Assembly (NCBI GenBank): GCA_016874005.1
Contig: VGVQ01000011.1
Location: 48,415 to 112,414 of the forward strand
Source: Gemmatimonadota bacterium
GTDB lineage: Bacteria; Gemmatimonadota; Gemmatimonadetes; Gemmatimonadales; GWC2-71-9
Length of the DNA stretch: 64,000 nucleotides
Direction of reading: 5' to 3'
Position 1 is the stretch's first letter. Each line of letters starts with the position of its first letter. The notes below the pieces were generated by a model, which searched no databases, was not told the origin of the DNA, and saw only the letters and a list, made by a program, of their open reading frames with translations. This document shows, in pieces, positions 1,507 to 17,701 of the stretch. The position numbers and the translations under genes are program-made.

Positions 1507-3518
1507 ATCGGTCGATTGCGTTGGGCGGGGCGCTGGCCGCGATGCTGCTGCTGGCCGGGAGCGGGCTGGCGCGAGCCCAGGGTGGGATCAGCGCGGAGCA
1601 GGCGGCCGGGATGCGGGTGCTGAGCAACGTGGCGGTGTCGCCGGATGGGCGATGGGTCCTCTACACGGTGACGACCGCCGATCTCAAAGCCAGTACCACC
1701 AACTCGGACCTCTGGCTGGTGGCGGCCACGGGCGGGGATCCGATCCGCCTCACCAACGGGAAGACCGTCGACGACCAGGGTCAGTGGTCGCCGGACGGCA
1801 AGTGGATCGCGTTCGTCTCCACCCGAGACGGCAAGCCGCAACTCTACCGGATCTCTCCGTTCGGCGGCGAAGCGACCAAGCTCACCGACAGCAAGGCTGG
1901 GGTCCGTTCCTTCGCGTGGGCGCCGGATGGCCGGCAGATCGCCTTCGTGGCGGGTCGGGATCCGACCCCGGACGAAGAGCGGAGACAGCGAGAGAAGGAC
2001 GACGCCATCGTCGTCGACGAGGGGTTCATCCCCACCCGGCTGAACCTGCTCGACCTCGGCACGGAGAAGGCCGCGGAACTGGTCAAAGCCGACGCCCAGA
2101 TCGGGTCGATTGCCTGGTCGCCTAACGGTCGCGCGATCGCCTACGTGACCACCCCGACCCCCAAGGCCGACGACGCCCGATTCTCCGACGTTCAGGTCGT
2201 GGACGTCGCGTCGGGGACGAGCCGCAAGGTGCTCGAGAGCCCGGGCCCGGACAACAACCCGAGCTGGTCGCCCGATGGCGCCTGGATCGCGCTCAGCACC
2301 CGGGGGCCCAAGGCCGTCTCGATCAGTCAGAGCCGCCTGGTGGTGGTGCCCGCCGCCGGTGGCGAACCGCGCCGAATCGGCGGCGATTTCCTCTATGAGG
2401 CCGGACCGACGACCTGGGCGCCGGATGGCAAGTCGCTCTACTTCTGGTCAGCGGTGAGGACCCGGTCGGAGTTGTTCCAGGTCTCGCTGGCCGGCGGGAC
2501 GCCGAAGCAGGTGTCGGACCTCCAGGGCTCGCTGGGGCTATTCGGCGGGGGCGCCCCGTCGATCAGCAAAGACGGCATGACCGTGGCGTTCCAGCGTTCC
2601 ACCATCGAGGCCCCGGATGAAGTGTATCTGGCTCGCCTGGAGGCGCCCTGGCGTCACACGAAACTCACCTCGCTCCACCCCGAGATCGCCTCGGCCTCCG
2701 TCGGAAAGGGCGAGGTGGTCCGGTGGAAGGGCAAAGATGGGCTCGAGGTCGAGGGGATCGTCGTGTACCCGGTCGGGTACCAGCCGGGACGCCGATACCC
2801 GACCGTCGCGATCATCCACGGCGGACCTTCCGGAGTGTGGAACGAGTCGTTTCCGGCCAACTGGTACAACTCGGCCCAGGTCTACGCCGGACAAGGGTGG
2901 GTGGCGTTCCTCCCTAACCCACGAGGATCGAGCGGCTACGGCGAGAAGTTCCTCGCGGCCAACTACCGCGATTGGGGTAACGGCGACTACCACGACATCC
3001 AGACCGGGCTCGACCACTTGATTCGGCGCGGGATCGCCGATTCCACCAAGCTGGCGCAAGGTGGTTGGAGTTACGGCGGCTACATGACCGCCTGGACCTT
3101 GACCCAGACCAACCGCTTCAAGGCGGTGATGGTCGGCGCCGGTCTCACCAACATGTACTCGATGTACTCCACCAACGACCTCCAGATGGTGCTGGAGGAG
3201 TACTTCGGCGCGGAGCCGTGGGACGACGAGACCGCCTACCGCCGAGCCTCGGCGATGATGCACATCAAGCAGGCGAGGACCCCGACCCTGATCATCCATG
3301 GCAAAGAAGACACCCGGGTTCCGATCGGTCAGGCCCAGGAGCTGTACATGGGCCTCAAGAAGAACGAGGTGCCGGTGGAGCTGGTCTTCTACCCCCGTGA
3401 GCCGCACGGGCTCCAGGAGCCGCGCCACGCCGCCGACAAGATCCAACGGGAGTACGACTTCTTCGCCAAATACGTCCTGGGGCTGGCCCCGAAGGAGCGA
3501 CCGGAGCTGGTGCCGTGA
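1503..3518 (+). CDS. S9 family serine peptidase with signal peptide (tandem paralog of the previous gene)
   Basis: Real start is ATG 1503 (ATGA overlap with upstream stop), not 705. Signal peptide MNRSIALGGALAAMLLLAGSGLARA, WSPDG repeats, GWSYGG, EDTRVP, EPHGL. Confidence 0.92.
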   Translation: MNRSIALGGALAAMLLLAGSGLARAQGGISAEQAAGMRVLSNVAVSPDGRWVLYTVTTADLKASTTNSDLWLVAATGGDPIRLTNGKTVDDQGQWSPDGKWIAFVSTRDGKPQLYRISPFGGEATKLTDSKAGVRSFAWAPDGRQIAFVAGRDPTPDEERRQREKDDAIVVDEGFIPTRLNLLDLGTEKAAELVKADAQIGSIAWSPNGRAIAYVTTPTPKADDARFSDVQVVDVASGTSRKVLESPGPDNNPSWSPDGAWIALSTRGPKAVSISQSRLVVVPAAGGEPRRIGGDFLYEAGPTTWAPDGKSLYFWSAVRTRSELFQVSLAGGTPKQVSDLQGSLGLFGGGAPSISKDGMTVAFQRSTIEAPDEVYLARLEAPWRHTKLTSLHPEIASASVGKGEVVRWKGKDGLEVEGIVVYPVGYQPGRRYPTVAIIHGGPSGVWNESFPANWYNSAQVYAGQGWVAFLPNPRGSSGYGEKFLAANYRDWGNGDYHDIQTGLDHLIRRGIADSTKLAQGGWSYGGYMTAWTLTQTNRFKAVMVGAGLTNMYSMYSTNDLQMVLEEYFGAEPWDDETAYRRASAMMHIKQARTPTLIIHGKEDTRVPIGQAQELYMGLKKNEVPVELVFYPREPHGLQEPRHAADKIQREYDFFAKYVLGLAPKERPELVP

Positions 3519-5101
3519 ACCGCTGGCTGACGATCTTCGCGGCCCCGGTCTGCCTGGCCGCGGCGCTCGCGGCGCAAGAGCCCGTCGATCTGCTGATCGC
3601 GGGCGGCACCGTCTACGACGGATCCGGTGGGACACCGTTCATCGCTGACGTCGGCATTCGGGGCGATCGGATCGTGTTCCTCGGGGATGCCGGTTTGGCC
3701 GGGATTCGGGCGGCGCGCACTCTCGATGCCGCTCGGCGGGTCGTGGCGCCGGGGTTCATCGACCCCCACACCCACGTCGACGGCGATCTCAGGAATCCGG
3801 CGACGCGTGGGCTGGTGCCGTTCCTGTTGCAGGGTGTCACGACCGTGATCTCCGGCAACGACGGTGGCGGGCCAGTCGACGTCGGCGCCGCGCTTCGCCG
3901 CCTCGAGGGCGGCGCGGGGACGAACGTGGCGTTCCTGGTGGGCCACGGCTCGATCCGGCGGGTCGTGCTGGGCATGTCCGACCGAGCCCCGAGCCCGACG
4001 GAGCTCGCTCGGATGGGGGCGATGGTCGCCCAGGCGATGGCCGACGGCGCGATCGGCCTCTCGACCGGCCTCTACTACGCGCCGGGCAGTTACGCGACGA
4101 CGGAGGAAGTCATCGAGTTGGCCCGAGTCGCCGGCGCCGCGGGTGGCTACTACGATTCCCACATTCGCGACGAGTCGAGCTACACGATCGGTCTCCTCGG
4201 GGCGGTCGACGAAACGATCCGGATCGGTCGGGAGGCCGGCGTGCCGGTCCACTTCGCCCACCTCAAGGCGCTCGGCGTCGACGTGTGGGGTCAAAGCGAT
4301 GCCGTGGTGGCCCGAATCCTGGCGGCTCGCGCCGCCGGCCTCCGGGTCACCGCCGATCAGTATCCCTACACCGCGTCGGGCACCGGGCTCGGCGCCTCGC
4401 TGCTGCCCCGGTGGGCCGAGGCGGGCGGCCGCGACTCGCTCCTCCGCCGCCTCGCCGATCCGGCGATCGCCGCCAGGCTCGAGAAGGAGATGGCCGAGAA
4501 TCTCCGCCGCCGCGGGGGAGCGGGATCGTTGTTGATCACCGGGGAGCCGGCCGCTTCACCCGCGGCAAGGGCTCGGATGCCGGCGGGCGGGAAGTGGAAG
4601 GGCAAGCGGCTCGCCGCTCTGGCCAGTGAGTTGGGCCTCGAGCCGGTCAAGGCGGCGATCGCGATCATCCAAGCGGGCGACGCGGGGATCGCCTCGTTCA
4701 ACATGAGCGAGGCCGATCTCGAGCACCTGATGCGGCAGGACTTCGTGGTCACCGGCTCCGACGGTTCCGACGGCCACCCTCGGAAATACGGGACCTTCCC
4801 GAAGAAGATCGCCAGCTATGTTCGGGAGAAAGGGGTCATCTCGCTCGCCCGGATGATTCAGGCGTCGAGCGCCCAGACCGCCGATCTCGCCAAGCTGACC
4901 GATCGGGGCCGGGTCGAGGTCGGCCGCCTCGCCGACCTGATCGTCTTCGATTCCGCGACGGTGGCCGATCGCTCGACCTATGAGCAGCCGGAGCGCCTGG
5001 CGGTCGGGATGGAGACCGTCATCGTGAACGGCCGGGTCGTGGTGACTGGCGGCCGTCCGATCGGCGCGCTCGCCGGTCGGCCCCTTCGGCGTGGCCGCTG
5101 A
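3515..5101 (+). CDS. N-acyl-D-amino-acid deacylase family amidohydrolase, secreted
   Basis: PGFIDPHTH metal motif, GLSTGLYYAPG, SHIRDE, ADQYPY, GSDG..HPRKYGTFP; N-terminal signal peptide; GTGA overlap with the upstream stop. Confidence 0.88.
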   Translation: MNRWLTIFAAPVCLAAALAAQEPVDLLIAGGTVYDGSGGTPFIADVGIRGDRIVFLGDAGLAGIRAARTLDAARRVVAPGFIDPHTHVDGDLRNPATRGLVPFLLQGVTTVISGNDGGGPVDVGAALRRLEGGAGTNVAFLVGHGSIRRVVLGMSDRAPSPTELARMGAMVAQAMADGAIGLSTGLYYAPGSYATTEEVIELARVAGAAGGYYDSHIRDESSYTIGLLGAVDETIRIGREAGVPVHFAHLKALGVDVWGQSDAVVARILAARAAGLRVTADQYPYTASGTGLGASLLPRWAEAGGRDSLLRRLADPAIAARLEKEMAENLRRRGGAGSLLITGEPAASPAARARMPAGGKWKGKRLAALASELGLEPVKAAIAIIQAGDAGIASFNMSEADLEHLMRQDFVVTGSDGSDGHPRKYGTFPKKIASYVREKGVISLARMIQASSAQTADLAKLTDRGRVEVGRLADLIVFDSATVADRSTYEQPERLAVGMETVIVNGRVVVTGGRPIGALAGRPLRRGR

Positions 5102-5106
5102 CGGCC

Positions 5107-6744
5107 GTGGCGACGATCTACGACCAAGGTCTCGAGCGGCGTCCGGCGAACTACGCCCCGCTCACGCCGTTAGGTTTTCTCGACTGGGCCGCCCGGGTCT
5201 ATCCCCAACGCACCAGCCTGATCCACGGGGCCCGGCGGTTCACCTGGGCCGAAACCGCCCGCCGGGCTCGGGCCTTGGCATCCGCCCTCCGCCGCCGCGG
5301 GGTCCGTCCCGGCGACACCGTCGCCGCGGTGCTGACCAACACGCCCGAGATGTACGAGTGCCACTTCGGCGTTCCCCTTGCCGGCGGCGTCCTCAACGCC
5401 ATCAACGTCCGACTCGATCCCGCCACCATTGCCTTCATTCTCGACCACGGCGAGGCGAAGGTGCTGCTGGTCGATCGGGAGTTCAGCGAGGTGGTCGGGC
5501 AAGCGTTGGCCCTGACAACCCGGCCGATGCTGGTCGTGGATGTCGACGATCCCGAGTACGCCGGTCCCGGCTCGGGGCTCGGCGCGGTCGAGTACGCCGC
5601 CCTCCTGGCCGAGGGAGATCCGGCGGACCGGTTCGACCCCCCGGCCGACGAATGGGACGCCATCGCCCTCAACTACACCTCCGGCACCACCGGCAATCCC
5701 AAGGGTGTGGTCTACCATCACCGCGGTGCCTACCTCAACGCCCTCAACCAGGCGATGCTCTGGGGCCTCACCCGGCACACCGTGTATCTCTGGACCCTCC
5801 CGATGTTCCACTGCAATGGGTGGTGCTTCCCGTGGTCGATGGCAGCGGTCGCCGGCACCAATGTCTGCCTCCGCCGGGTCGAGGTCGGCGCGATCTTCGC
5901 CGCGATCGCCGCCCACAGCGTCACCAACTACTGCGGCGCGCCGATCGTTCACAACACCATGCTCGCCGCTCCCGAGGCGCTCTGGGCCACCGTCCCCGGC
6001 CCGCTCAAGGCGTTCGTCGCCGGCGCGGCGCCCCCGGCCGCGACCATCGAGTCCCTGGCTCGGCGAGGGGTCGACCTCACCCATGTCTATGGGCTCACCG
6101 AGGTCTACGGCCCGGCGACGGTCTGCGCTCCGCAGGACGAGTGGGCGGCCCTCCCGGCGGCCGAGCAGGCTGTTCTCAATGGCCGCCAGGGCGTGCGGTA
6201 CCTGGTCGAGGAAGGCTTCGAAGTGCTCGATCCCGACACGATGCAACCGGTGCCCTGGGACGGGACCACCATCGGCGAAGTCATGTTCCGCGGCAACATC
6301 ACCATGAAGGGCTACCTCAAGAACCAGCGGGCCACCGAGGAAGCCTTCGCGGGCGGCTGGTTCCACTCGGGCGACCTGGCGGTGGTGTTCCCCGATGGCT
6401 ACGTCAAGATCCGCGACCGGGGGAAAGACATCATCATCTCGGGCGGTGAGAACATTTCCTCGATCGAGGTCGAGGACGCCTTGCATCACCATCCGGCGGT
6501 CTTCGCTGCCGCCGTCGTGGCAAAGCCGGATCCCAAATGGGGCGAGACTCCCTGCGCCTTCGTGGAGCTCAAGCCCGGGGCGGCCGTTTCCGAGCAGGAG
6601 CTGATCGACCATTGCCGGGCCCGGCTGGCCCATTTCAAAGCCCCGAAATCCGTGATGTTCGGCCCGTTGCCGAAGACCTCGACCGGCAAGATCCAGAAGT
6701 TCGTCCTTCGCCAGCAGGTCCGTTCCGCCTCCGCCATCGAGTGA
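5107..6744 (+). CDS. Acyl-CoA synthetase (AMP-forming ligase)
   Basis: YTSGTTGNPKG AMP-binding loop, YGLTE, WFHSGD, RGKDIIISGGENI, PKTSTGKIQK. Confidence 0.92.
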   Translation: MATIYDQGLERRPANYAPLTPLGFLDWAARVYPQRTSLIHGARRFTWAETARRARALASALRRRGVRPGDTVAAVLTNTPEMYECHFGVPLAGGVLNAINVRLDPATIAFILDHGEAKVLLVDREFSEVVGQALALTTRPMLVVDVDDPEYAGPGSGLGAVEYAALLAEGDPADRFDPPADEWDAIALNYTSGTTGNPKGVVYHHRGAYLNALNQAMLWGLTRHTVYLWTLPMFHCNGWCFPWSMAAVAGTNVCLRRVEVGAIFAAIAAHSVTNYCGAPIVHNTMLAAPEALWATVPGPLKAFVAGAAPPAATIESLARRGVDLTHVYGLTEVYGPATVCAPQDEWAALPAAEQAVLNGRQGVRYLVEEGFEVLDPDTMQPVPWDGTTIGEVMFRGNITMKGYLKNQRATEEAFAGGWFHSGDLAVVFPDGYVKIRDRGKDIIISGGENISSIEVEDALHHHPAVFAAAVVAKPDPKWGETPCAFVELKPGAAVSEQELIDHCRARLAHFKAPKSVMFGPLPKTSTGKIQKFVLRQQVRSASAIE

Positions 6745-6747
6745 GCC

Positions 6748-7533
6748 ATGACCGACACGACTCCGTACCTCCTCCGGCATCAGGAAGGCCCGGTGCTCGT
6801 CCTTACCATGAATCGGGGAGACCGGTTCAACCCGCTTTCGCGTGGGATGATCGACGCCCTTCAGGTCGAGCTGGATCGGATCGCGGAAGACTGCTCGGTT
6901 CGGGTGGTAGTGCTCGCCGCGAGCGGCCGCGGCTTTTCGGCCGGCCACGATCTCAAGGAGATGCGGGCCCACGTGGGCGACGATGCCTGGCAGCGAGGCT
7001 TGTTCGAGGCCTGCAGCCGGATGATGGTGCGGTTGACCGAGCTGCCCCAGCCCGTCATCGCTCGGGTCCACGGGATCGCCACCGCGGCCGGCTGCCAGCT
7101 GGTGTCGATGTGTGACCTCGCGGTCGCCGCCGACAGCGCGACGTTCGCGCTCCCCGGGGTCAGCATCGGGGTCTTCTGTTCCACGCCGGCTGTTGGGGTG
7201 GGGCGCAACGTCGGCCGAAAGCACGCCATGGAGATGCTGCTCACCGGGCAACCCATTTCGGCGGCGACGGCCTTGGAGTGGGGATTGGTGAATCGGGTGG
7301 TTCCCGCCGCCGACCTCGACCGCGCGATCGAGGAATTCACCCGCGCGATCTCCTCGAAGAGCGCCGCGACCATCGCCCTCGGCAAGCGGGTCTTCTATCG
7401 GCAGATCGAGCGGGGGCTCGAGCCGGCCTACGCCGCCGCGGGCGACGCCATGGCCTGCAACCTCGAGCTGCCCGACGCAGCCGAGGGCATCGACGCGTTC
7501 CTGGGGAAACGGGCCCCGGTGTGGCCCTCGTGA
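6748..7533 (+). CDS. Enoyl-CoA hydratase/isomerase (crotonase) family protein
   Basis: FSAGHDLKE, PVIARVHGIATAAGCQLVSMCDLAVA, EGIDAFLGKRAP. Confidence 0.9.
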   Translation: MTDTTPYLLRHQEGPVLVLTMNRGDRFNPLSRGMIDALQVELDRIAEDCSVRVVVLAASGRGFSAGHDLKEMRAHVGDDAWQRGLFEACSRMMVRLTELPQPVIARVHGIATAAGCQLVSMCDLAVAADSATFALPGVSIGVFCSTPAVGVGRNVGRKHAMEMLLTGQPISAATALEWGLVNRVVPAADLDRAIEEFTRAISSKSAATIALGKRVFYRQIERGLEPAYAAAGDAMACNLELPDAAEGIDAFLGKRAPVWPS

Positions 7534-7720
7534 CGTCGAAGTAACCGAATCGCCGCATTGTGCCAGGCCGGGCCGTTCGGCCCAGGCCCGAAACGGCAAG
7601 ATGTTGCCACCGATCGCATTGTAGCGGGTCGATCGCCGGGCGAAGGTTGGTGTGAAGCATCAACCGCGCCAGGGACGAGCACGCGTGATTCGATCGATCT
7701 TCGCTGGTGGATCCAGCCGA

Positions 7721-7984
7721 GTGGTCCGGTACCGTCAGGCACCGGCCGTTCTCAGCGTCGACCATGGACAAAAGACGGTGCTGCTCGATCCGAATTCCGA
7801 GCAGTTCTATGCGCTCGACGGCGCCGCCCAACGGATCTGGTCGCTGCTGGAGGCGCCCCGGGCGGCGGAGGAGATCGTCGCCTCGTTGCGGGAGGCGTAC
7901 CCGGTGTCCGCCGATGAACTTGCCGGCGATGTCACCGCATTCCTCGACGAAATGACCCAGCTGCGGCTGGTCGAGGCCAAATGA
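7721..7984 (+). CDS. PqqD-family RiPP recognition element (lasso B1/E protein)
   Basis: TVLLDPNSEQFYALDGAAQRIWSLL...EEIVASLREAY.V..DEL..DV..FL..M is the PqqD/RRE pattern. Start uncertain (GTG 7685 or 7721). Stop overlaps the B2 start (ATGA). Confidence 0.88.
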   Translation: MVRYRQAPAVLSVDHGQKTVLLDPNSEQFYALDGAAQRIWSLLEAPRAAEEIVASLREAYPVSADELAGDVTAFLDEMTQLRLVEAK

Positions 7985-8364
7985 GGCCCGCCTCGCCGCT
8001 GTGGTGCCTCATGGTCCTCGCCGCGGTGCGGACCTCGCTCAAGGCGGCGGGGTTCCGGCGGACGATCCGGTGGGCGCAACGACTTGCTCCGGCGCCGCAT
8101 CCCGAGGCCCGCCGAGAGTTGGTCGAGGCCCAGGCGCGCGCCGTGGCCGTGGCGGCCGCCTTCTTCCCCGGGCGAGCCATCTGCCTGGAGCAGTCGATCG
8201 CGCTCTACCTCGTGCTCCGTCGCCGGCGGGTCCCCGCCGTTCTTCGGATCGGCGTCCAGCCCTATCCGTTCGCCGCCCATGCGTGGGTCGAACTGGACGG
8301 CCAGCCGATCTACGAGAACGAAGACGATCTCGCCAAGTTCGTGGCCTTCCCCGGTCTCGCCTGA
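7981..8364 (+). CDS. Lasso peptide leader peptidase B2 (transglutaminase-like Cys protease)
   Basis: Catalytic Cys in AICLEQSIAL, LRIGV strand, and His in FAAHAWVELDG; flanked by RRE and cyclase. Confidence 0.9.
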   Translation: MRPASPLWCLMVLAAVRTSLKAAGFRRTIRWAQRLAPAPHPEARRELVEAQARAVAVAAAFFPGRAICLEQSIALYLVLRRRRVPAVLRIGVQPYPFAAHAWVELDGQPIYENEDDLAKFVAFPGLA

Positions 8365-10217
8365 TGAACCCGTTCCTGGTGGTCGTCGATCTCGACGGCG
8401 GATCGCTCGGACTCGACGCCCTGCAGCCCGGCCTCCCGGCGCTGTCGCAGAGCGACGGGCGAGTAGAGGTCCTCTGGAACGAATCCTGGGCCGCGGGGTG
8501 GGTGCCTTCGGCGACCTTCGAACGGCCGGGGTTCGTCTCCCAGCATGGGATCTTCGCGGTGGGCAACGTTCGGCTCTCGGGGCGACCGAAGGACGGAGCG
8601 CACCCCACGGCCGACCTGGTGCACCTGATCAACGAGTACCGCCGAGTCGGGCCGATGGCCGTCCGCGAGCTGATCGGCGACTTCAGCTTCGTGCTCTGGG
8701 ATAGTCACAACCGCCAGGTTCTGGCCGGTCGCGACGCGCTCGGGGTAAAGACCCTGTTCTGGCAACAGCGGGGACGCCGCCTGTATCTCTCCTCCCACCT
8801 CGACTGCCTCGAAGGCGCGGCCTACGATGGGGAGTTCATCGGGCACTTCCTGGTGGGCCTCCCCCACGCCACCGACCGCACCATCTACGCCGATGTTCAC
8901 CGGTTGCCGGCTGGCGCCATCCTCACTTGGAGCAAGAACCGGCTCGAGACCAGGAGGTTTTGGAGCCCCTCGGAGTTCATCGGCGTCGACCGGCGGATCG
9001 GGCTCCCCGACGCCGCGGCCGAGTTCCGGCGGTTGTTCGAGGAGGCCGTCGTGGCCCAGCTCGACGACCGGGTCCCGGCCTGGTCGCAGCTGTCGGGCGG
9101 CCTCGACTCGTCCGGGGTAGTCGGGGTCGCGTCGCGACTGGCCGATCGGGGGCAGGTGGCGCGGTTAGGCGGGACGGTGTCGGTGGTCGACTCACTCGGC
9201 GGTGGAGACGAGACCAAGTACTCCGACGCCGTCCTGGCCCGATACCCGTTGCCCAATGCCCAGCTGCTCGACTTCGGCGCCTGGCAGGCCGACGAGCAAG
9301 GACCGCCCCGCCAAGGCGAGCCGCGGATCTTCCTGCCGTTCTTCGCCCGGAGCCGGGCGATGAACGAGGCCGTCTTCGGCGGCGGGGGCCGAGTCCTCCT
9401 GAGCGGGTTCGGGTCGGACAATTACCTGGCCGGCCCCCACGGCTACCTGGCCGATTGGGTCCGCCAAGGCCGGCTCCTGGCCGCCGCCAAGCAGATCACC
9501 GACGTTGCGGTGGCGAGTCGGCGGTCGTTCTACCGAGTCGGCTTCGACAACGTGGTCCTCCCGCTCGTCCCGGCGTTTCTCAAGCGGCGGTGGCACGACG
9601 CCGCCGGCCAGCTGCCCCCGTGGATCGACGGCGGCTTTGCCCGCCGTCATGGCTTGATCGATCGCGCGGCTGGGATCGGCTTTCCGTCCGCTGGGTTGGG
9701 CGTGTTCGGCGATGCCCAGATGGTTGAGCTGGGGACGCTCGACCTGGCGCTCGAGCGCGGCATCTCGGAGGAAGGAATCGAGATGCGCTACCCGTTCCTC
9801 CATCGGCCGCTGGTCGAGTTCTGCTTGACCCTGCCGGCCACGCTCAAGATCGGGGCCGCTCGCAAGAAGCTGGTCATGCGTGAGGCCTTGTCGGATGTGC
9901 TCCCGCCGCTGGTCCGAGACCGCCCGGGGAAGGGGGGCATCGACGGGCGGATCGCCTGGTCACTGAGCCACGAGCGCGAGCTGCTGGGCCGATTGGTGGC
10001 GCAGAGCCGCCTGGCGGATCTGGGCTGCGTCGACGCCGGCCGGCTGGCAGCTGACCTCGCCCAGGCCCAAGCGGGCAACATCTGGTCGATCGGACCGCTC
10101 TTCGCCACCCTGGCGCTCGAAACCTGGCTGGCCGTTCGGGCCGGCCAGTATTCCGAATCTGTACCCGCAGGAGCCGCGGCAGGGGCCGCGGCCGAATCAC
10201 ACCAACCAAGGAGTTGA
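8364..10217 (+). CDS. Lasso peptide cyclase (asparagine-synthetase-like macrolactam synthetase, C protein)
   Basis: Start ATG 8364 overlaps the B2 stop. GDFSFVLWD, GRDALGVKTLF, ATP loop LSGGLDSS, SGFGSD, RYPFLHRPLVEF. No N-terminal Cys nucleophile of true AsnB. Confidence 0.88.
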   Translation: MNPFLVVVDLDGGSLGLDALQPGLPALSQSDGRVEVLWNESWAAGWVPSATFERPGFVSQHGIFAVGNVRLSGRPKDGAHPTADLVHLINEYRRVGPMAVRELIGDFSFVLWDSHNRQVLAGRDALGVKTLFWQQRGRRLYLSSHLDCLEGAAYDGEFIGHFLVGLPHATDRTIYADVHRLPAGAILTWSKNRLETRRFWSPSEFIGVDRRIGLPDAAAEFRRLFEEAVVAQLDDRVPAWSQLSGGLDSSGVVGVASRLADRGQVARLGGTVSVVDSLGGGDETKYSDAVLARYPLPNAQLLDFGAWQADEQGPPRQGEPRIFLPFFARSRAMNEAVFGGGGRVLLSGFGSDNYLAGPHGYLADWVRQGRLLAAAKQITDVAVASRRSFYRVGFDNVVLPLVPAFLKRRWHDAAGQLPPWIDGGFARRHGLIDRAAGIGFPSAGLGVFGDAQMVELGTLDLALERGISEEGIEMRYPFLHRPLVEFCLTLPATLKIGAARKKLVMREALSDVLPPLVRDRPGKGGIDGRIAWSLSHERELLGRLVAQSRLADLGCVDAGRLAADLAQAQAGNIWSIGPLFATLALETWLAVRAGQYSESVPAGAAAGAAAESHQPRS

Positions 10218-10219
10218 TC

Positions 10220-10342
10220 ATGTCGAACTACACCAAGCCGACCGTGACCAAGATTGGCTCGATCGTGCAGAAGACCGAGGGTGGCTGGACCTGGCAGGAC
10301 ATCGAGGTCATGAGCAAGCGGGGCTGCGGCAGCGGCAACTAG
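10220..10342 (+). CDS. Lasso peptide precursor A (40 aa): leader MSNYTKPTVTKIGSIVQKTE, core GGWTWQDIEVMSKRGCGSGN
   Basis: Translated by hand (below the ORF-track cutoff). AAGGAG at 10208-10213, ATG 10220, TAG 10340-10342. Y(-17), P(-14), V(-12), G(-8), T(-2); core starts with Gly and has Asp7/Glu9. Confidence 0.92.
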   Translation: MSNYTKPTVTKIGSIVQKTEGGWTWQDIEVMSKRGCGSGN

Positions 10343-10364
10343 TCGCCGGCCAAGACCCAGTTCG

Positions 10365-10391
10365 GGCGGGCGGGCGCCAAACCCGCCCGCC
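10365..10391 (+). terminator. GC-rich hairpin after the lasso precursor (terminator or mRNA-stabilising stem)
   Basis: GGCGGGCGGG-cgccaaa-CCCGCCCGCC is a perfect 10-bp stem; only TT follows, so termination may be leaky. Confidence 0.5.
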
Positions 10392-10478
10392 TTGGCGCGC
10401 CCTCAACATTCCCACCGGCAAGCCGATGCCCTAGATTGAGTTACCAGCGTTGACACACCGGCTCCCCAAGGAGTCCTG

Positions 10479-12956
10479 TTGACCGACCGCCGTAGGTTGT
10501 TGCCCGTCTGGTTCGTGCCTTGGATCCGCGGCGGCGGGTGGCTGGCTTTCGGTGCCGGCCTGAGCATCCTAACACTCACGATCCTTAGGCCCGGCTATGG
10601 CGGGCTCGCCGCCGTTCTCGTTCCGGGGTGGTCACTCGTTGCTGTCGTGTGGGCGGCGGCGGTCATTCGAGTGCGCAAGGGCGGAGCGGTTCGGCAAGCG
10701 GCTTTGGCAGCGCTCCTTGCCGTCGTGGCGTCGATGGGCATGGCCGTCGGGCTGTCGGGGGTCGGTCCGCCCCCAGCTTGGTTGCGCTGGCTGGCGATCG
10801 TTCACATGCCGTTGTTTGTGCTCAGCTTGCTCCTATGGCCGGCCCTCCGGCGGCCAAAGCAACAATGGCCCTATCTAATCATTGACCTGTCCATTCTGGC
10901 CGTTGCGCTCGGGCTTCTAGTGTGGAACGAGTGGTACCGGCCTGACGAGCCGCCCGACGTAGAACAAGTCCTTACCGTTGCGGGGCAGGTTTCGCTCCTC
11001 CTTGGCGTAAACATAGCCGTCGTGAGGCGTCCCAGGGAACGCCACTTCGCGTCGTTCATGCTTCTGGTATGGATGTCGATTGCCGTGTTCAGCGCGAACA
11101 CAGGCCTCGCGATCATGAACCCCGCGGAGAACGTCGCCGGTGCAATCGTCTCGATTGTGATGCCGACGGTTCTCCTCCTCGGCATCGCCTCCGCCGAAGC
11201 TCTCCGCGTTGAGCTCCGTTGGCCCTGGAAACGCACCGAAGGCGGCAGCCCAGTCCCTTGGATCGCGGTGCTGGCGATCACCTTCTTCGTCTTGAACCTG
11301 GTCTTCAACCAGAACGCCACTGGCGTCGGTCCCATCGTGCTCGGCGCCCTCGGCACCATGATCCTGCTGGTCATCCGCCAGGCCGTCACCGCCCGGCACA
11401 ACGCCCGGCTCCAGGCCGAGCGGGCCCAACTCGAGGCGGACGCCCGGATCGCGGCGTTGGTCCGGCACACCTCCGACGTCATCCTCATTACCGAGACCGA
11501 TCTCAAAATCCGATTTGCTTCGCCTTCCGCAACGGCGTTGCTGGGCCAGGATCCGGAGGACGTCGTCGGCCGCGACATTCTCTCGTTGGTCGAACCGGAT
11601 CTCCGCGAGGCCATCCAACTGATGGTGGCCGAACGCATCGCGGTGCCGGGGCAGAGCGCGGTGGCCAATTGGAAAATGCCGGGGCCCGGCGGGGACGTGC
11701 GCCGAGTCGAGGCGGTGGTCACCAACCTGGTCCATCAGCCGACCATCGGCGGCCTGGTGTTCACCCTGCGCGACCAGACCGAACGGGCCCTGCTCGAAGA
11801 ACAGCTCAATCAGGCCCAGAAGATGGAGGCCATCGGACAGCTGGCCGGCGGGGTCGCTCACGACTTCAACAACCTCCTCACCACCATCATGGGGCACAGC
11901 GAGGTCGGCCTCGAGATCCTCGAGCCCGGGCACCCCGTCCGGGACGACCTCGAGCAGGTGCTCAAGGCCTCCCAGCTCGCCGCCTCGCTCACCCGCCAAT
12001 TGCTCGCCTTCAGCCGAAAACAGGTGGTCGAGCCGAAGGTGATCAACGTGAGCGGCACCCTGGCCGAAGTGGTCCGGTTGCTCAAGCGCCTGATCAAGGA
12101 GGACGTCACCACGGTGCTCGACGTGGCCTCCGATCTTGGCCACGTCAAGATGGACCCCTCGCAACTCGAGCAGGTCGTCCTCAACCTCGCGGTCAATGCT
12201 CGCGACGCGATGCCCGAGGGCGGCCGACTCACGATTCGGGCCCGCCGCCAGTTGGTCGAACGGCAGATCACCGACGCCGTCATTCCGGTCGATCCGGGCG
12301 AGTACCTGGTGATCGAAGTATCCGACACCGGCGTTGGGATGGATGACGCAACCCAGCAACGGATCTTCGAGCCGTTCTTCACCACCAAACCGGTGGGGCG
12401 CGGTACTGGCCTCGGTCTGGCCAGCGTCTACGGCATCGTCCGACAGAACAGTGGTGGTCTGGTCCTGGTGAGCCAACTCGGCCGGGGGACCACCTTCACC
12501 GTGTACCTCCCCCGGATCGAAGCGGAGCCGGAACAGGCGGCGGCCGCCCCGCGGCGCCGACCGGTTCGCGGCGAGGGCGCCACGATCCTTCTGGTGGAAG
12601 ACGAAACCGCCCTCCGGGAGATCGCCGAGAAGGTGCTGCGCCGGGAGGGCTACCGGGTCCTGGTCGCCAGCGACGGCGACGAAGCCCTCATGCTCGCGGC
12701 GGGATCGCCCCATCCGATCGACCTGGTCCTCACCGACGTCATCATGCCCGGCATGTCCGGCAGCCAGATGGTGGCCGAGATGCGCAAGCTCAAGCCGATC
12801 TCCCGGGTCCTCTATATGTCGGGCTACCCGGGAGAGGATCTCATCGGGCGGCTCGGGATCGACGACCGACTCCTCCGGAAGCCCTTCACGCCCTTCGTCC
12901 TGGTCGAGAACATTCGGGCCGTGTTCGAAGGCCGCGAGGCGCCCAGCAACCCGTAA
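10479..12956 (+). CDS. Membrane-bound hybrid sensor histidine kinase (multi-TM sensor - PAS - HisKA - HATPase - REC)
   Basis: About 300-aa polytopic N-terminus; PAS ([10 protein letters not shown]...); H-box [21 protein letters not shown]; N-box [10 protein letters not shown]; DTGVGM and [16 protein letters not shown]; receiver LLVEDE...DVIMPGMSG...KPF. AAGGAG before a TTG start. Confidence 0.92.
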
Positions 12957-12959
12957 ACC

Positions 12960-13787
12960 GTGGATCTCGAGCGGTATTTCGAACGAATCGGCTATCGCGG
13001 TACCCCGAGCGGGAACCTCGAGACCCTCACCGCGATCCATCGCGCCCACCTCCTCGCCATCCCCTACGAGAACCTCGACATCCACCTCGGGCGGCGACTG
13101 GTGCTGGACCAGGACAGGAGCTATCAGAAGCTCGTGGTCGAGCGTCGAGGCGGCTGGTGCTACGAGATGAACGGCCTCTTCGCCGCGGTGCTGGAGCGAC
13201 TCGGCTTTCGGGTCACCAAGGCCTGGGGGACGGTGGGCCGAGCCAGCCGGGGCGAGGCGGTCGAGGGCAATCACCTGGTCTTGCTGGTCGATCTCGATCG
13301 GCGATACCTCGCCGACGTGGGCTTCGGCGATGGGTCGATCGATCCGCTCCCTCTCGAAGTCGGCGGCTATCGGACCGCCGGCTTCGAGGTCGCCATCGGC
13401 CGGGAAGGCGATCGCTGGGTGTTTCGGAACCACCAGTATGGGGCCGCGGCGGAGTTCGATTTCACCGAGGCGCCTCGGGTACTCGCCGACTTCCGGCCCC
13501 GGTCGGACGCGCTCCAGACCGAGCCCGATTCGCCCTTCGTCCAGAAAACCGTGGTCCAGCGGCACCGGCCGGAGGGCATCGTCACCCTCCGCGGGGCGGT
13601 CCGGTCGTTGGTCTCGCCGGGCGGGATCGAGCGCCGCACGTTGAAAGATCCAGTAGATTTTCAGCAGACCCTGGCGACCGATTTCGGGCTCGATCTCGGC
13701 GACCAGACCGCCCGGCTGTGGGCAATCATCGAGGAGCGACACCGCCAATGGCTCGCCGAATCCCCGGAGCAACCGCCGCGCTGCTGA
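12960..13787 (+). CDS. Arylamine N-acetyltransferase family protein
   Basis: YFERIGY, AIPYENLD, RRGGWCYEMNGLF (Cys), NHLVLLV (His), LADVGFG (Asp). Confidence 0.92.
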   Translation: MDLERYFERIGYRGTPSGNLETLTAIHRAHLLAIPYENLDIHLGRRLVLDQDRSYQKLVVERRGGWCYEMNGLFAAVLERLGFRVTKAWGTVGRASRGEAVEGNHLVLLVDLDRRYLADVGFGDGSIDPLPLEVGGYRTAGFEVAIGREGDRWVFRNHQYGAAAEFDFTEAPRVLADFRPRSDALQTEPDSPFVQKTVVQRHRPEGIVTLRGAVRSLVSPGGIERRTLKDPVDFQQTLATDFGLDLGDQTARLWAIIEERHRQWLAESPEQPPRC

Positions 13788-15460
13788 TCGCGGCTCTCGT
13801 CCCCCCATCGCTGGACGGCCAAATCGTCAATCGATTCGGGGTTCGGGTTCCGATGCGCGACCGGGTCGAGCTGGTGGCCAACCTCTGGCTGCCGGCCCCG
13901 ACCGGCAAGCACCCGACCATCCTGCTTCGAACCCCGTACGACAAGACGGCGCAGTATCGACGGTACCGGCTGGATCGATACCTCCAGGCCGGCTACGCCG
14001 TAATGGTCCAGGACACCCGCGGGCGGGGCGACTCCGAGGGACGCTTCGATTTCTACTTCCCGGAAGGCAAGGACGGCTACGACACCATCGAGTGGATCGC
14101 GCGGCAGAGCTGGTCCAACGGCCGGGTGGGCATGGACGGCGGCTCCTACCTCGGCGCGGTCCAGTGGCTCGCGGCCCGCGAGCGACCGCCCCACCTGGCC
14201 TGCATCATCCCGACCGCGTCGTCCGGGCGGCTTTTCGACGAGATCCCCTACCTCGGGGGGGCCTTTCGGCTCGACTGGGCGCTCGACTGGCTCAACCTCA
14301 CCGCCGAGCGGGTCAGTCAGGGCGATTTGAACGAGCTGGTCAAGTGGGACTCGCTCCTGCTCCAGCGCCCGCTGGCTCGCCTCGATTCGCTGTTAGGCAG
14401 GCCGATGGCGTTGTACCAGCGGATGCTGGCCCACTCCACCCTCGACGCCTACTGGCGCCGGATTCAATTCGGCCCCGAGGACTACGCCCGGATCGAGGTG
14501 CCGGTCCTCACCGTGACGGGCTGGTTCGACGGCGACCAGCCGGGCGCGTTGTCGTATTGGGACGGGATGGAGGCGTTGGGGCGCCCGAACAACCACTATC
14601 TGATCGTCGGGCCCTGGAATCACGGCCAGACCTATCTCGGCGGGGCCGTCAAGCAGGGGGAATTCGCCCTCGATTCGACCGCGATCTTCCCGATTCAGGA
14701 AGAACGGATCCGGTTCTTCGACTGGTGCCTCAAGCGAGCCACGCCGAGCTACGATGCGCCGCGGGCCCGGGTGTACCTGACCGGCCGGAACGGCTGGCTC
14801 GCCGGGGATCGCTACCCGCTTCGCGAGGTGAGCCCTCGACCGATATTCTTGGCGAGCGGGGGGCGGGCCAATACCCTCAACGGAGACGGCGCGCTCCGAT
14901 GGGAGCCATCGGCGGCCGCCGCGGTCGACACCTTCCGCTACGATCCCGACCGACCGGTGCCGAGCCGGCCGCTCGCGACCGACCACCGGCCGGTCGAGGA
15001 ACGAGCCGACGTCCTGGTGTATACCACCGAGGTCTTGACCGATCCGCTGGAGTTGCTCGGTCGGCCGATCGTCAAGCTGTGGGCCGCCACGGACGGCCCC
15101 GACACCGATTTCACCGCCAAGCTCCTCGACGTCTATCCCGACGGCCGGGCGGTGCTGCTCGGTCCCTCGCCGACCGGGGTGCGACGGGCCCGGTACCGCA
15201 ACGGGTACCTCCGCGAGGAACTGGTCACCCCGAACGAGCCGATCGAGTACACCATCGAGATGGCCGACATCGGCCATCGGCTGGCTGCCGGCCACCGACT
15301 CCGGTTGGAGATATCCAGCAGCGCCTTTCCGTTCATCGACCGCAACGCCAATACCGGCCGGCCGGTGGCCACCGATACCACCTGGCGGGTGGCCCGGCAG
15401 ACCGTCTTCCACGGCGCCGAGCGGCCGTCGCGGGTCGTGCTACCGGTGCTCGCTCCGTAG
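13748..15460 (+). CDS. CocE/NonD (S15) family hydrolase, secreted
   Basis: Likely start ATG 13748 (signal peptide). VPMRD, LLRTPY, QDTRGRGDSEG, nucleophile GGSYLG, TGWFD, GPWNH, C-terminal LRLEISSS.FP. Confidence 0.88.
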   Translation: MARRIPGATAALLIAALVPPSLDGQIVNRFGVRVPMRDRVELVANLWLPAPTGKHPTILLRTPYDKTAQYRRYRLDRYLQAGYAVMVQDTRGRGDSEGRFDFYFPEGKDGYDTIEWIARQSWSNGRVGMDGGSYLGAVQWLAARERPPHLACIIPTASSGRLFDEIPYLGGAFRLDWALDWLNLTAERVSQGDLNELVKWDSLLLQRPLARLDSLLGRPMALYQRMLAHSTLDAYWRRIQFGPEDYARIEVPVLTVTGWFDGDQPGALSYWDGMEALGRPNNHYLIVGPWNHGQTYLGGAVKQGEFALDSTAIFPIQEERIRFFDWCLKRATPSYDAPRARVYLTGRNGWLAGDRYPLREVSPRPIFLASGGRANTLNGDGALRWEPSAAAAVDTFRYDPDRPVPSRPLATDHRPVEERADVLVYTTEVLTDPLELLGRPIVKLWAATDGPDTDFTAKLLDVYPDGRAVLLGPSPTGVRRARYRNGYLREELVTPNEPIEYTIEMADIGHRLAAGHRLRLEISSSAFPFIDRNANTGRPVATDTTWRVARQTVFHGAERPSRVVLPVLAP

Positions 15461-17608: not shown

Positions 17609-17701
17609 GCCGAAGCTTGGCTCCACCGCCGTCGGGCGTCAAACCGGCGGCGGGAGTATTATTGGCGATCGTCTCACCATCGATCTCGAGGGCCACAGCG
17701 A

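What the first reader, a model, noticed from the sequence alone, without database searches (positions are those of the whole stretch)
7721..10342. Lasso-peptide cluster with all four core genes and an unannotated 40-aa precursor
Seen: translationally coupled RRE (B1) - B2 protease - Asn-synthetase-like cyclase, then a small ORF whose AAGGAG RBS lies in the last cyclase codons: MSNYTKPTVTKIGSIVQKTE|GGWTWQDIEVMSKRGCGSGN. Known: lasso leaders carry YxxPxL at -17/-14/-12, Gly near -8 and Thr at -2, and cores start with Gly (or Ala/Ser/Cys) with Asp/Glu at 7-9. All are met here, with Val in place of Leu at -12. I do not recognise the core as a characterised lasso peptide, the precursor sits last (B1-B2-C-A), and the host looks like a lineage from which I know no characterised lasso peptide.
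Basis: partly seen in the sequence, partly recalled or inferred. Interest (0 to 1): 0.9.

Follow-up and report, generated by a model that had tools for sequence, protein, structure and literature searches.

The report
Lasso-peptide gene cluster in a lake Gemmatimonadales genome
This is a real, intact gene cluster for a knotted ("lasso") peptide in an uncultured lake bacterium; its peptide family is new and rare, but the biosynthetic system is an ordinary example of a well-known kind.

Summary
Window 7652-10342 (+) carries four tightly packed genes. They are a PqqD-type leader-binding protein (B1), a transglutaminase-like leader protease (B2), an Asn-synthetase-like cyclase (C), and a 40-aa precursor (A) with its own AAGGAG ribosome site.

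The precursor is a real gene. Seventeen related genomes carry 17 distinct versions in the same place, each with a GGAG-type ribosome site. Invariant residues are Tyr-17, Pro-14, Thr-11, Gly-8, Thr-2, Gly1, Glu9 and Arg14.

Asp7 occurs only in the window and its two nearest relatives. The ring is therefore most likely Gly1-Glu9, with Arg14 as the probable plug. The predicted 20-residue product weighs 2148.947 Da.

The host belongs to Gemmatimonadales and the DNA recurs in lake-water metagenomes. The precursor family is very small: 10 representatives among 1.84 billion proteins.

"Precursor last" is common in other phyla. Lasso clusters have already been predicted in Gemmatimonadota.

New here are a many-pass-membrane hybrid histidine kinase that is always inherited with the cluster, a conserved upstream DNA element, and a conserved hairpin after the precursor.

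Verdict: a new member of a known kind, of moderate interest. No product or expression data exist.

The parts
7595..7621 (+). Conserved upstream DNA element, GGCAAGATGTTGCC-N7-GCATTG (general form GGCRR-N4-YYGCC-N7-GYMTTG). Probable promoter or operator of the B1-B2-C-A operon.
   Evidence: Present 128-168 nt upstream of the B1 'R(Y/F)R' codon in 10 of 10 loci, although the upstream gene differs between them. One match in the 3.88-Mb genome and none for the reversed control. GG and GC are invariant with fixed spacing, which resembles a sigma-54 -24/-12 site. The genome encodes sigma-54. Function not tested.
7685..7984 (+). B1: PqqD-like leader-recognition protein (RRE). Most likely start GTG 7685; alternative starts are GTG 7652 and GTG 7721.
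   Evidence: PF05402, E 1.3e-16. NF033536 and NF033530 lasso PqqD models at about 42 bits, below their cut-offs of 80 and 70. Closest solved relatives are TbiB1 5v1u (E 1.3e-6), 9x90_B (a lasso PqqD chaperone) and TfuB1 6jx3_B. Orthologue alignment is A3.
7981..8364 (+). B2: transglutaminase-like cysteine protease that removes the leader.
   Evidence: PF13471, E 1.1e-26. NF033537 lasso_biosyn_B2, 95.9 bits, above the cut-off of 33. Cys68, His100 and Asp106 are invariant in 10 of 10 orthologues. The AlphaFold model has pLDDT 86.8. Only weak fold matches were found, to transglutaminase-like cysteine proteases; the best is 3isr at E 0.07.
8364..10217 (+). C: Asn-synthetase-like, ATP-dependent lasso cyclase (isopeptide-bond former).
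   Evidence: PF00733, E 3.5e-32, and PF13537. The best NCBIfam model is NF033535, lasso peptide isopeptide bond-forming cyclase, at E 4.6e-57 and 194 bits, below its strict cut-off of 525. The SGGLDSS motif (residues 244-250) is invariant in 10 of 10 orthologues, and the protein starts MNPF with no Cys2.
10208..10213 (+). AAGGAG ribosome-binding site of the precursor gene, inside the last codons of C.
   Evidence: Read directly from the sequence. A GGAG-type site lies upstream of the start in all 17 precursor genes.
10220..10342 (+). A: 40-aa lasso precursor. Leader is 10220-10279 (MSNYTKPTVTKIGSIVQKTE), core is 10280-10339 (GGWTWQDIEVMSKRGCGSGN), stop is 10340-10342.
   Evidence: NF033521 lasso_leader_L3, E 0.0066, 16.4 bits, below the cut-off of 19. 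In the family alignment A2, Tyr-17, Pro-14, Thr-11, Gly-8, Thr-2, Gly1, Glu9 and Arg14 are invariant in 18 of 18 sequences. Synonymous codon use at invariant residues was confirmed.
10364..10392 (+). GC-rich hairpin (11-bp perfect stem, 7-nt loop) after the precursor. Probable terminator, attenuator or 3'-end stabiliser.
   Evidence: Fold; its energy z-score is only -0.77 in this GC-rich sequence. A strong stem-loop of unrelated sequence lies within the first 110 nt after the precursor stop in 11 of 11 loci. The simple terminator scan missed it because it lacks a T-run.
10479..12956 (+). Hybrid histidine kinase co-inherited with the cluster. It has about 9-10 membrane-spanning segments (residues 18-299), then PAS, HisKA, HATPase and a receiver domain. 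Start is TTG 10479, with AAGGAG at 10468-10473.
   Evidence: Pfam domains; hydropathy. It lies immediately downstream of the precursor in 9 of 9 long loci. Its N-terminal domain was found in 19 of 41 related genomes, all 19 of which carry the cyclase orthologue. It is missing from the 97%-complete same-genus genome G014, which keeps the upstream flank.

Best explanation
This is a functional split-B lasso-peptide operon, B1-B2-C-A, in an uncultured freshwater Gemmatimonadales bacterium.

Proposed mechanism, with steps inferred from what is known of lasso biosynthesis:
1. The 40-aa precursor is translated from its own AAGGAG site.
2. B1 binds the leader through the Tyr-17 / Pro-14 / Val-12 motif.
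3. B2 (Cys68-His100-Asp106) cuts after Glu-1, guided by Thr-2.
4. The cyclase uses ATP (SGGLDSS loop) to activate the side chain of Glu9 and joins it to the amine of Gly1.
5. This closes a 9-residue ring around the tail, with the invariant Arg14 as the most likely plug.

The product would be a 20-residue class II lasso peptide with no internal disulfide and one free Cys16. Its predicted monoisotopic mass is 2148.947 Da.

The operon appears to be read from a conserved upstream element and to end at a conserved hairpin. The many-pass-membrane hybrid histidine kinase next door is inherited with it as one block and most likely regulates, or responds to, peptide production.

Shown here: gene identities, catalytic motifs, conservation of the precursor family, and the linkage. 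Inferred: every chemical step, threading, the plug, the role of the kinase, and the biological activity, which remains unknown.
For: Gene families. B2 is above the curated lasso B2 cut-off. A lasso-specific model is the best NCBIfam hit for each of B1, C and A.

Solved relatives: B1 is related to the solved lasso leader-binding proteins TbiB1 and TfuB1.

Catalytic motifs: SGGLDSS in C is invariant in 10 of 10 orthologues. Cys/His/Asp in B2 is invariant in 10 of 10.

Orthologues: orthologous cyclases (44-73% identity) occur in 18 of 40 related genomes. A C-terminal fragment occurs in one more, G010.

Precursor: a family member lies directly after the cyclase in 17 of 17 loci that extend that far. 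The 4 loci without one are cut by a contig end inside the cyclase. There are 8 invariant positions, including Gly1, Glu9 and Arg14, each encoded by at least 2 synonymous codons. Ten further family members come from a scan of 1.84 billion proteins. All have Gly1 and Arg five residues after the ring Glu; Glu is at position 9 in 9 of them and at position 8 in 1.

Defining features as stated in print: an N-terminal amine joined to Asp/Glu at positions 7-9, a YxxPxL leader motif, and Thr at -2 (PMC6784204, passages).

Block inheritance with the kinase.

Flanking elements: hairpin in 11 of 11 loci; upstream element in 10 of 10.

Population data: the DNA is identical in contigs from three other lake-water runs. 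A 97-98% variant shows no change inside the precursor gene.
Against: There is no product, mass or expression evidence.

The NCBIfam scores of B1 (42 bits against cut-offs of 80 and 70), C (194 against 525) and A (16.4 against 19) are all below their curated cut-offs. Family assignment for those three therefore rests on Pfam, best-hit identity and context.

No exporter, immunity gene or isopeptidase is part of the conserved block.

The window peptide also has Asp7, so a 7-residue ring cannot be excluded from sequence alone.

The hairpin's folding energy is not better than shuffled sequence (z -0.77).

Linkage to the kinase rests on closely related genomes, which are not independent observations. 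No extra co-variation was seen between the kinase sensor domain and the peptide core.
Confidence: 0.8

Rival explanations
1. Same cluster and precursor, but in this strain the ring closes on Asp7 to give a 7-residue ring, leaving a 13-residue tail.
For: Asp7 lies within the allowed 7-9 range (PMC6784204). It is present in the window, in its closest relative (L002) and in P0002.
Against: Asp7 is absent from 15 of 18 aligned family members and from all 10 further representatives. Glu9 is invariant in 18 of 18 and present in 9 of the other 10. The cyclases are orthologous, and Arg keeps a fixed distance of 5 residues after the Glu in 28 of 28 sequences.
Confidence: 0.1
2. The lasso peptide is a self-produced signal sensed by the adjacent many-pass-membrane hybrid histidine kinase. 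On this view the five genes form a peptide-signalling cassette rather than an antibiotic cluster.
For: The five genes B1-B2-C-A-kinase form one block in 9 of 9 long loci, while both flanks vary. The kinase's sensor domain was found only in genomes that carry the cyclase: 19 with both, 1 with the cyclase only (on a 3.1-kb contig), 0 with the kinase only, and 21 with neither, out of 41. The sensor is buried in the membrane, has no Pfam family, and diverges far faster (24-55% identity) than the cytoplasmic part (58-80%). No exporter or immunity gene lies in the block.
Against: All positive genomes belong to two neighbouring genera, so the co-occurrence may be a single inherited event. Kinases in lasso clusters are already known as regulators of production (HumG/MslG, PMC7168211 passages; Firmicutes, PMC7533575 passages). 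A conserved hairpin separates the precursor from the kinase. Sensor and core distances do not co-vary beyond phylogeny: partial r 0.27 (p 0.08) and 0.02 (p 0.47), from 8 genomes. No partner DNA-binding regulator is in the block.
Confidence: 0.15
3. The small ORF is not the substrate, or the cluster is a silent relic that makes nothing.
For: No RNA or product data exist. The precursor's NCBIfam leader score is below the cut-off.
Against: The ORF, its ribosome site and its key residues are under purifying selection across 17 genomes. All three enzymes keep their catalytic motifs. No frameshifts or internal stops were seen in 10 orthologous cyclases. The region is intact in contigs from four other runs.
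Confidence: 0.04

Closest known systems
Split-B (B1 + B2) lasso-peptide pathways whose leader-binding proteins are solved: TbiB1 (PDB 5v1u/5v1v) and TfuB1 of the fusilassin pathway (6jx3)
   Same: Separate PqqD-like B1 and transglutaminase-like B2, plus an Asn-synthetase-like cyclase. The leader carries the YxxPxL-type motif and Thr at -2, and the core starts with Gly. B1 matches TbiB1 at E 1.3e-6. The motif definition comes from PMC6784204.
   Different: The host is Gemmatimonadales, not Actinobacteria or Thermobaculum. The leader has Val instead of Leu at -12. The gene order is B1-B2-C-A. The core matches no sequence in my searches. The block has no ABC exporter.
Capistruin (Burkholderia; class II). 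Its ring and plug details are recalled from memory, not from any call.
   Same: As I recall it, a roughly 19-20 residue class II peptide with a 9-residue ring starting at Gly1 and an Arg a few residues after the ring acting as the plug. This is the closest architectural analogue of the predicted Gly1-Glu9 ring with Arg14. The review passages confirm only that it has 19 residues and is class II.
   Different: Capistruin uses a fused B protein, a proteobacterial type of leader and a dedicated exporter (recalled). Its ring acceptor is Asp rather than Glu (recalled). I did not compare the sequences.
Class I lasso clusters of Streptomyces that carry a sensor kinase and response regulators (humidimycin HumG/R1/R2; MS-271 MslG/R1/R2)
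   Same: A histidine kinase gene belongs to the lasso cluster and influences production (PMC7168211, passages).
   Different: Those clusters also encode two DNA-binding response regulators, four ABC-transporter proteins and disulfide oxidoreductases. Here there is a single hybrid kinase with a roughly 300-residue many-pass-membrane sensor and its own receiver domain, and none of the other accessory genes.
Lasso clusters predicted by genome mining in Gemmatimonadota MAGs
   Same: The same phylum and the same class of cluster. The authors report them in 29 marine MAGs (PMC11316326, passages).
   Different: That report gives counts only in the text I could read. It gives no precursor family, ring prediction or kinase linkage.

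Membership tests
Lasso-peptide biosynthetic gene cluster (RiPP class) | Asn-synthetase-like ATP-dependent cyclase (C) with the SGGxDS nucleotide-binding loop | tested here: met
   PF00733, E 3.5e-32. The best NCBIfam hit is the lasso cyclase model NF033535, at 194 bits, below its cut-off of 525. SGGLDSS is invariant in 10 of 10 orthologues.
Lasso-peptide biosynthetic gene cluster (RiPP class) | Transglutaminase-like Cys-His-Asp leader protease (B or B2) | tested here: met
   NF033537, 95.9 bits, above the cut-off of 33. PF13471, E 1.1e-26. Cys68, His100 and Asp106 are invariant in 10 of 10. That these three form the catalytic triad is from general knowledge of the family.
Lasso-peptide biosynthetic gene cluster (RiPP class) | PqqD-like leader-recognition element (B1, or the N-terminal part of B) | tested here: met
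   PF05402, E 1.3e-16, above its cut-off. Homology to TbiB1, 9x90_B and TfuB1. The lasso-specific NCBIfam models score about 42 bits, below their cut-offs of 80 and 70.
Lasso-peptide biosynthetic gene cluster (RiPP class) | Adjacent short precursor with Thr at -2, a small first core residue, and Asp/Glu at core position 7-9 | tested here: met
   Thr-2, Gly1 and Glu9 are invariant in 18 of 18 sequences. Definition from PMC6784204.
Lasso-peptide biosynthetic gene cluster (RiPP class) | The product is a dehydrated, threaded lariat (isopeptide ring with the tail held inside) | not testable with these tools
   Needs expression, MS, protease and heat tests, and NMR.
Class II lasso peptide (no disulfide bridge) | No pair of cysteines able to form an internal disulfide | tested here: met
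   The core has a single Cys, at position 16. Class definition from PMC6784204.
NCBIfam NF033521 lasso_leader_L3 leader family | Score at or above the curated cut-off of 19 bits | tested here: not met
   16.4 bits, E 0.0066, over leader residues 4-23. It resembles the family but is not a member by the curated threshold.
Sigma-54 (-24/-12) promoter, for the 7595-7621 element | Invariant GG and GC with the spacing seen in known promoters; sigma-54 and activator proteins present in the genome | tested here: inconclusive
   GG and GC are invariant in 10 of 10 loci. The spacing is one base shorter than in the E. coli examples listed in PMC2831329, although that paper's consensus allows N4-5. The genome has a sigma-54 gene, and 8 of its 11 matches to the activator family are at E <= 1e-23. 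My genome-wide spacing counts were uninformative.
Peptide-pheromone signalling cassette (agr-like; definition recalled from memory) | The processed peptide is sensed by the neighbouring many-pass-membrane histidine kinase, which feeds back on the operon | not testable with these tools
   Only block inheritance is shown. The co-variation test gave no signal.

The most novel reading that the evidence does not exclude
The five-gene block B1-B2-C-A plus the many-pass-membrane hybrid histidine kinase is a lasso-peptide signalling cassette. The threaded peptide would be the cognate signal of the kinase's membrane-embedded sensor. The kinase would feed, through a phosphorelay, onto the conserved -24/-12-like element upstream of B1. 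This would make it a quorum-sensing-like circuit built on a lasso peptide in Gemmatimonadales.
Probability: 0.12. Interest if true: 0.7.

Novelty: new member of a known kind. Interest (0 to 1): 0.35.

Why it matters
Within what I could search, no lasso peptide from Gemmatimonadota has been made or characterised. This cluster is compact (2.7 kb, four genes) and comes with a clear, testable prediction: a Gly1-Glu9 ring, an Arg14 plug and a mass of 2148.947 Da. That makes it an easy target for heterologous or cell-free production.

The family of about 28 natural variants has hypervariable ring residues 2-8 and a fixed Glu-x4-Arg frame. It is a ready-made map of substrate tolerance for one cyclase lineage.

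The strict co-inheritance with an unusual membrane-embedded hybrid kinase gives a concrete way to ask what lasso peptides do for their producers. That question is still largely open for clusters without exporters.

If none of this holds up, it is simply one more of the many predicted lasso clusters.

Tried and rejected
Single-protein scan of genome contigs with the cyclase: 40 pattern matches, none confirmed. The alignment-based scan then worked.

RNA evidence: no RNA holder was listed among the 14 runs returned. The four runs I laid are DNA contigs and cannot show expression.

PDB sequence search with the precursor profile: only chance-level hits, E >= 0.47. Chains under 20 residues are not in that library, so most mature lasso peptides could not be compared.

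B2 against PDB by sequence: nothing relevant. By fold: only weak transglutaminase-like matches, best E 0.07.

Rfam on 7300-10700: no family at E <= 0.1.

Sigma-70 promoter scan: 0 sites. The terminator scan found 2 sites inside genes and missed the real hairpin.

Literature searches: the phrase 'downstream of the cyclase' together with lasso terms gave 0 papers. Four short substrings of the leader or core gave 0 papers. Main texts only were searched. Supplements are closed, and large catalogues of predicted lasso precursors live in supplements, so the sequence may be listed there.

Isopeptidase idea: S9-family peptidase genes lie at 1-3518 and at 15440-17626. The upstream pair is also kept (60-75% identity) in G014, which lacks the cluster. 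I therefore do not count them as part of the system.

The N-acetyltransferase at 12960-13787 as a tailoring enzyme: among the three loci checked for it besides the window (L102, L105, L108), it lies next to the kinase only in the closest relative, L102. Rejected.

Second copy of the GGCAA-N4-WTGCC half-motif before the kinase (window 10417-10430): seen in 1 of 10 loci only. Treated as chance.

Sensor-core co-variation (partial Mantel test, 8 genomes; L103 was dropped because its kinase frame lacks most of the sensor): no signal.

Genome-wide test of which GG/GC spacing this organism uses: raw counts follow codon periodicity. My crude filter for intergenic sites fails in this high-GC genome. 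No conclusion.

ESM Atlas on the kinase sensor: nearest clusters are unnamed membrane proteins (score 0.91). MASE3 and MASE4 appear only at 0.81-0.82, which is a lead only.

Complex prediction (B1 alignment with precursor alignment) did not complete, so there is no result of any kind on B1-leader binding.


Full report
WHAT IS THERE

Between 7652 and 10342 on the + strand lie four genes with overlapping or near-touching ends.

- The first frame (7652..7984) is a PqqD-family protein: PF05402, E 1.3e-16, 61.1 bits against a cut-off of 23.4.
- The second (7981..8364) is a transglutaminase-like protein: PF13471, E 1.1e-26. It passes the curated NCBIfam model for lasso B2 proteins: NF033537, 95.9 bits against a cut-off of 33.
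- The third (8364..10217) is an asparagine-synthetase homologue: PF00733, E 3.5e-32, plus GATase_7. Its best NCBIfam model is the lasso isopeptide-bond-forming cyclase NF033535: E 4.6e-57, 194 bits, below that model's strict cut-off of 525.
It matches no Pfam family. It gives a weak match to the NCBIfam lasso leader model NF033521: 16.4 bits against a cut-off of 19, E 0.0066.

ATGA is shared at 7981-7984. TGATG is shared at 8362-8366. AAGGAG at 10208-10213 lies inside the last cyclase codons, 6 nt before the precursor ATG.

The only correction to the coordinates concerns the B1 start. GTG 7721 is one of three in-frame starts. GTG 7685 gives an N-terminus (MIRSIF...) that parallels the MGLLSIF... 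of relatives.

IS THE SMALL ORF REAL?

A search of 41 related genomes with the cyclase found orthologues (44-73% identity) in 18 genomes besides the window's own. A C-terminal fragment turned up in one more.

I fetched those loci. In every locus whose contig extends beyond the cyclase stop there is a short ORF of the same family directly after the cyclase. That makes 17 genomes and 17 distinct sequences. The four loci without one (L016, L018, L019, L020) are cut by a contig end inside the cyclase. Each of the 17 has a GGAG-type ribosome site upstream of its start.

I aligned these with one further database relative, P0002 (85% identical). Eight positions are invariant in 18 of 18 sequences: Tyr-17, Pro-14, Thr-11, Gly-8, Thr-2, Gly1, Glu9 and Arg14. 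Val-12 is nearly invariant. Each invariant residue is encoded by two or three different codons among the 17 DNA sequences, so selection acts on the protein. Core positions 2-8 are hypervariable, as expected for a RiPP family.

An exhaustive profile search of 1.84 billion representative proteins found only 10 further family members at E <= 0.001. All have Gly1. Nine have Glu at position 9 and one has it at position 8. In all of them Arg sits five residues after that Glu.

A profile scan of 401 genomes sampled across the phylum gave six strong matches (E <= 2.5e-20), in two genera. It also gave four weak ones (E 4e-4 to 0.0098). Two of those lie inside long open frames, and one is in an unpublished genome. 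The family is therefore real, small and phylogenetically narrow.

ENZYMES

Ten orthologous cyclases share an invariant SGGLDSS loop at residues 244-250. They begin MNPF..., so they lack the N-terminal cysteine that glutamine-dependent asparagine synthetases use; that last point is general knowledge.

Ten B2 orthologues keep Cys68, His100 and Asp106. A confident model of B2 (pLDDT 86.8) finds only weak matches in the PDB. Several of them are transglutaminase-like cysteine proteases; the best is at E 0.07.

B1 is homologous to solved lasso leader-binding proteins: TbiB1 5v1u at E 1.3e-6, 9x90_B, 9x8z_B and TfuB1 6jx3_B. By sequence the cyclase reaches only a hydroxyamidotransferase (7ylz), beta-lactam synthetase and asparagine synthetases.

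MOST LIKELY MECHANISM

A review I read in passages (PMC6784204) states three rules. Lasso peptides join the N-terminal amine to Asp or Glu at position 7, 8 or 9. The leaders of split-B systems carry YxxPxL. Thr at -2 is highly conserved.

All three are met here, with Val for Leu at -12. The window peptide has both Asp7 and Glu9. Only Glu9 is conserved across the family, and Asp7 appears in 3 of 18 sequences. I therefore predict a Gly1-Glu9 nine-residue ring.

The fixed Glu-x4-Arg spacing, seen in 28 of 28 sequences, points to Arg14 as the plug. The conserved hydrophobic residue at position 11 is Met or Phe in 16 of the 17 locus sequences. It probably sits on the other side of the ring. This is inference; I recall a similar Arg plug in capistruin, but that comes from no call.

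The mature 20-mer would weigh 2148.947 Da, against 2166.958 Da for the linear form. It has one Cys and so belongs to class II. Every chemical step is inferred from the family, not shown.

HOST AND SETTING

The closest named loci found with the cyclase alignment are MAGs labelled Gemmatimonadales or Gemmatimonadaceae bacterium.

The DNA occurs in 14 listed lake-water metagenome runs. Four of them hold at least half of the sampled words, and one of those four may be the source sample. Contigs from three runs are identical over the parts they cover. A fourth run carries a 97-98% variant with 5 differences in 10188-10600, and all 5 lie outside the precursor gene.

WHAT ELSE BELONGS TO IT

Comparison of nine long loci shows the order B1-B2-C-A-kinase in 9 of 9. 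tblastn missed the precursor in two of them, and the motif search found it there.

The flanks vary. Upstream is either an amidohydrolase directly or an amidohydrolase followed by an acyl-CoA synthetase and an enoyl-CoA hydratase. Of the three loci checked for the downstream genes besides the window, only the closest relative has the N-acetyltransferase and S15 peptidase.

The kinase is an 825-residue hybrid. It has about 9-10 hydrophobic segments in residues 18-299, with no Pfam family there. These are followed by PAS, HisKA, HATPase and a receiver domain.

Its N-terminal 320 residues were found in 19 of 41 related genomes. All 19 also have the cyclase orthologue or, in G010, a fragment of it. 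One genome has the cyclase without the sensor, but there the cyclase sits on a 3.1-kb contig. No genome has the sensor without the cyclase. Twenty-one have neither.

In G014 (same genus, 97% complete) the amidohydrolase, synthetase and hydratase are present and syntenic. The lasso genes and the kinase orthologue are both missing. Only paralogues matching the cytoplasmic part were found. The five genes therefore behave as one inherited block. These genomes are close kin, so this is suggestive and not statistical proof.

Two non-coding features are also conserved by position.

(i) A strong GC-rich hairpin follows the precursor stop in 11 of 11 loci, with unrelated sequences. In the window it is an 11-bp stem at 10364-10392. 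Its energy is not exceptional for this base composition (z -0.77).

(ii) A 27-nt element, GGCRR-N4-YYGCC-N7-GYMTTG, lies 128-168 nt upstream of the B1 R(Y/F)R codon in 10 of 10 loci. In the window it is at 7595-7621, and it occurs once in the 3.88-Mb genome. Its invariant GG and GC recall a sigma-54 -24/-12 promoter. The spacing is one base shorter than in the E. coli examples tabulated in PMC2831329, although that paper's consensus allows N4-5 (passages). The genome encodes sigma-54, and 8 of its 11 matches to the activator family are at E <= 1e-23. I could not settle whether this is a sigma-54 promoter.

COMPARISON WITH WHAT IS KNOWN

This is a textbook split-B lasso system. The order B1-B2-C is shared by many loci from Acidobacteriota, cyanobacteria, Nitrospira, Rokubacteria, Mesorhizobium and a haloarchaeon recovered.

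A simple leader and core motif scan of the 37 loci with B genes found candidate precursors after the cyclase in 12 and before the B genes in 4; one locus has both. These are regex hits only and are not verified. 'Precursor last' is therefore not unusual.

Kinases inside lasso clusters are known. HumG and MslG influence production (PMC7168211, passages), and kinases occur in ruminal Firmicutes clusters (PMC7533575, passages). The hybrid many-pass-membrane type seen here, without a partner regulator or transporter, differs from those.

Lasso clusters have been counted in 29 marine Gemmatimonadota MAGs (PMC11316326, passages). Searches for 'lasso peptide' with Gemmatimonad* returned 20 papers and with Gemmatimonas 4 papers. 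I judged these from titles and abstract openings only, apart from PMC11316326, which I read in passages. None reports a characterised product. No paper text holds the core or leader words. Supplements were closed, so catalogues of predicted precursors could not be checked.

VERDICT

The refinement is a Gly1-Glu9 ring, an Arg14 plug, and a five-gene inherited block with its own upstream element and hairpin.

This is a new member of a known kind, from a phylum without a characterised lasso peptide. Interest is moderate (0.35). The boldest reading still allowed is a lasso-peptide signalling cassette. It has linkage in its favour and nothing more; a co-variation test gave no signal.

Noticed in passing
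window 1-3518 (+) and 15440-17626 (-); also 13790-15460 (+): The neighbourhood is rich in peptidases. There are two tandem PD40 plus S9 prolyl-oligopeptidase-family genes upstream, a third S9 (DPP-IV-like) gene downstream, and an S15 X-Pro dipeptidyl-peptidase. I recall that lasso isopeptidases belong to the S9 family, but the upstream pair is also kept in G014, which lacks the cluster. No link is inferred.
   Followed up: partly
window 12960-13787 (+): An arylamine N-acetyltransferase (PF00797, E 1.9e-53) lies directly after the kinase. Of the three loci checked for it besides the window, only the closest relative (L102) has it there.
   Followed up: partly
P0012: One family member has the ring Glu at position 8 instead of 9 and keeps the Glu-x4-Arg spacing. 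This is a natural ring-size variant within one precursor family.
   Followed up: no
L023:2384-2700 (+) and L080:4801-5150 (+): A Gemmatimonadaceae MAG whose cyclase is 35% identical, and a Halosimplex (archaeal) locus, each carry two tandem candidate precursors of other families directly after the cyclase. These are regex hits only.
   Followed up: no
L103 (G005:C23), kinase frame at about 5008-6954 (-): In this relative the open frame of the kinase is only 671 aa and aligns from query residue 182. Most of the membrane sensor is missing or lies in another frame.
   Followed up: no
window 10417-10430 (+): A second GGCAA-N4-ATGCC site, followed by TAGATTG, lies between the hairpin and the kinase start. 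It was found in the window only, 1 of 10 loci. The adjacent CCGATGCCCTAGATT is shared with the closest relative.
   Followed up: partly
window 7600-10600 against run X5: A 2025 lake-water run carries a 97-98% variant of the cluster. It has many substitutions in B1, B2 and C, and none inside the 123-nt precursor gene. With about 3 changes expected there, this is only weakly informative.
   Followed up: partly
window 5107-7533 (+): The acyl-CoA synthetase and enoyl-CoA hydratase pair sits between the amidohydrolase and B1 in the window, L102, L108 and the cluster-less G014. No match to either gene was found in that gap in L103-L105 and L109. The cluster's upstream junction is therefore variable.
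   Followed up: partly
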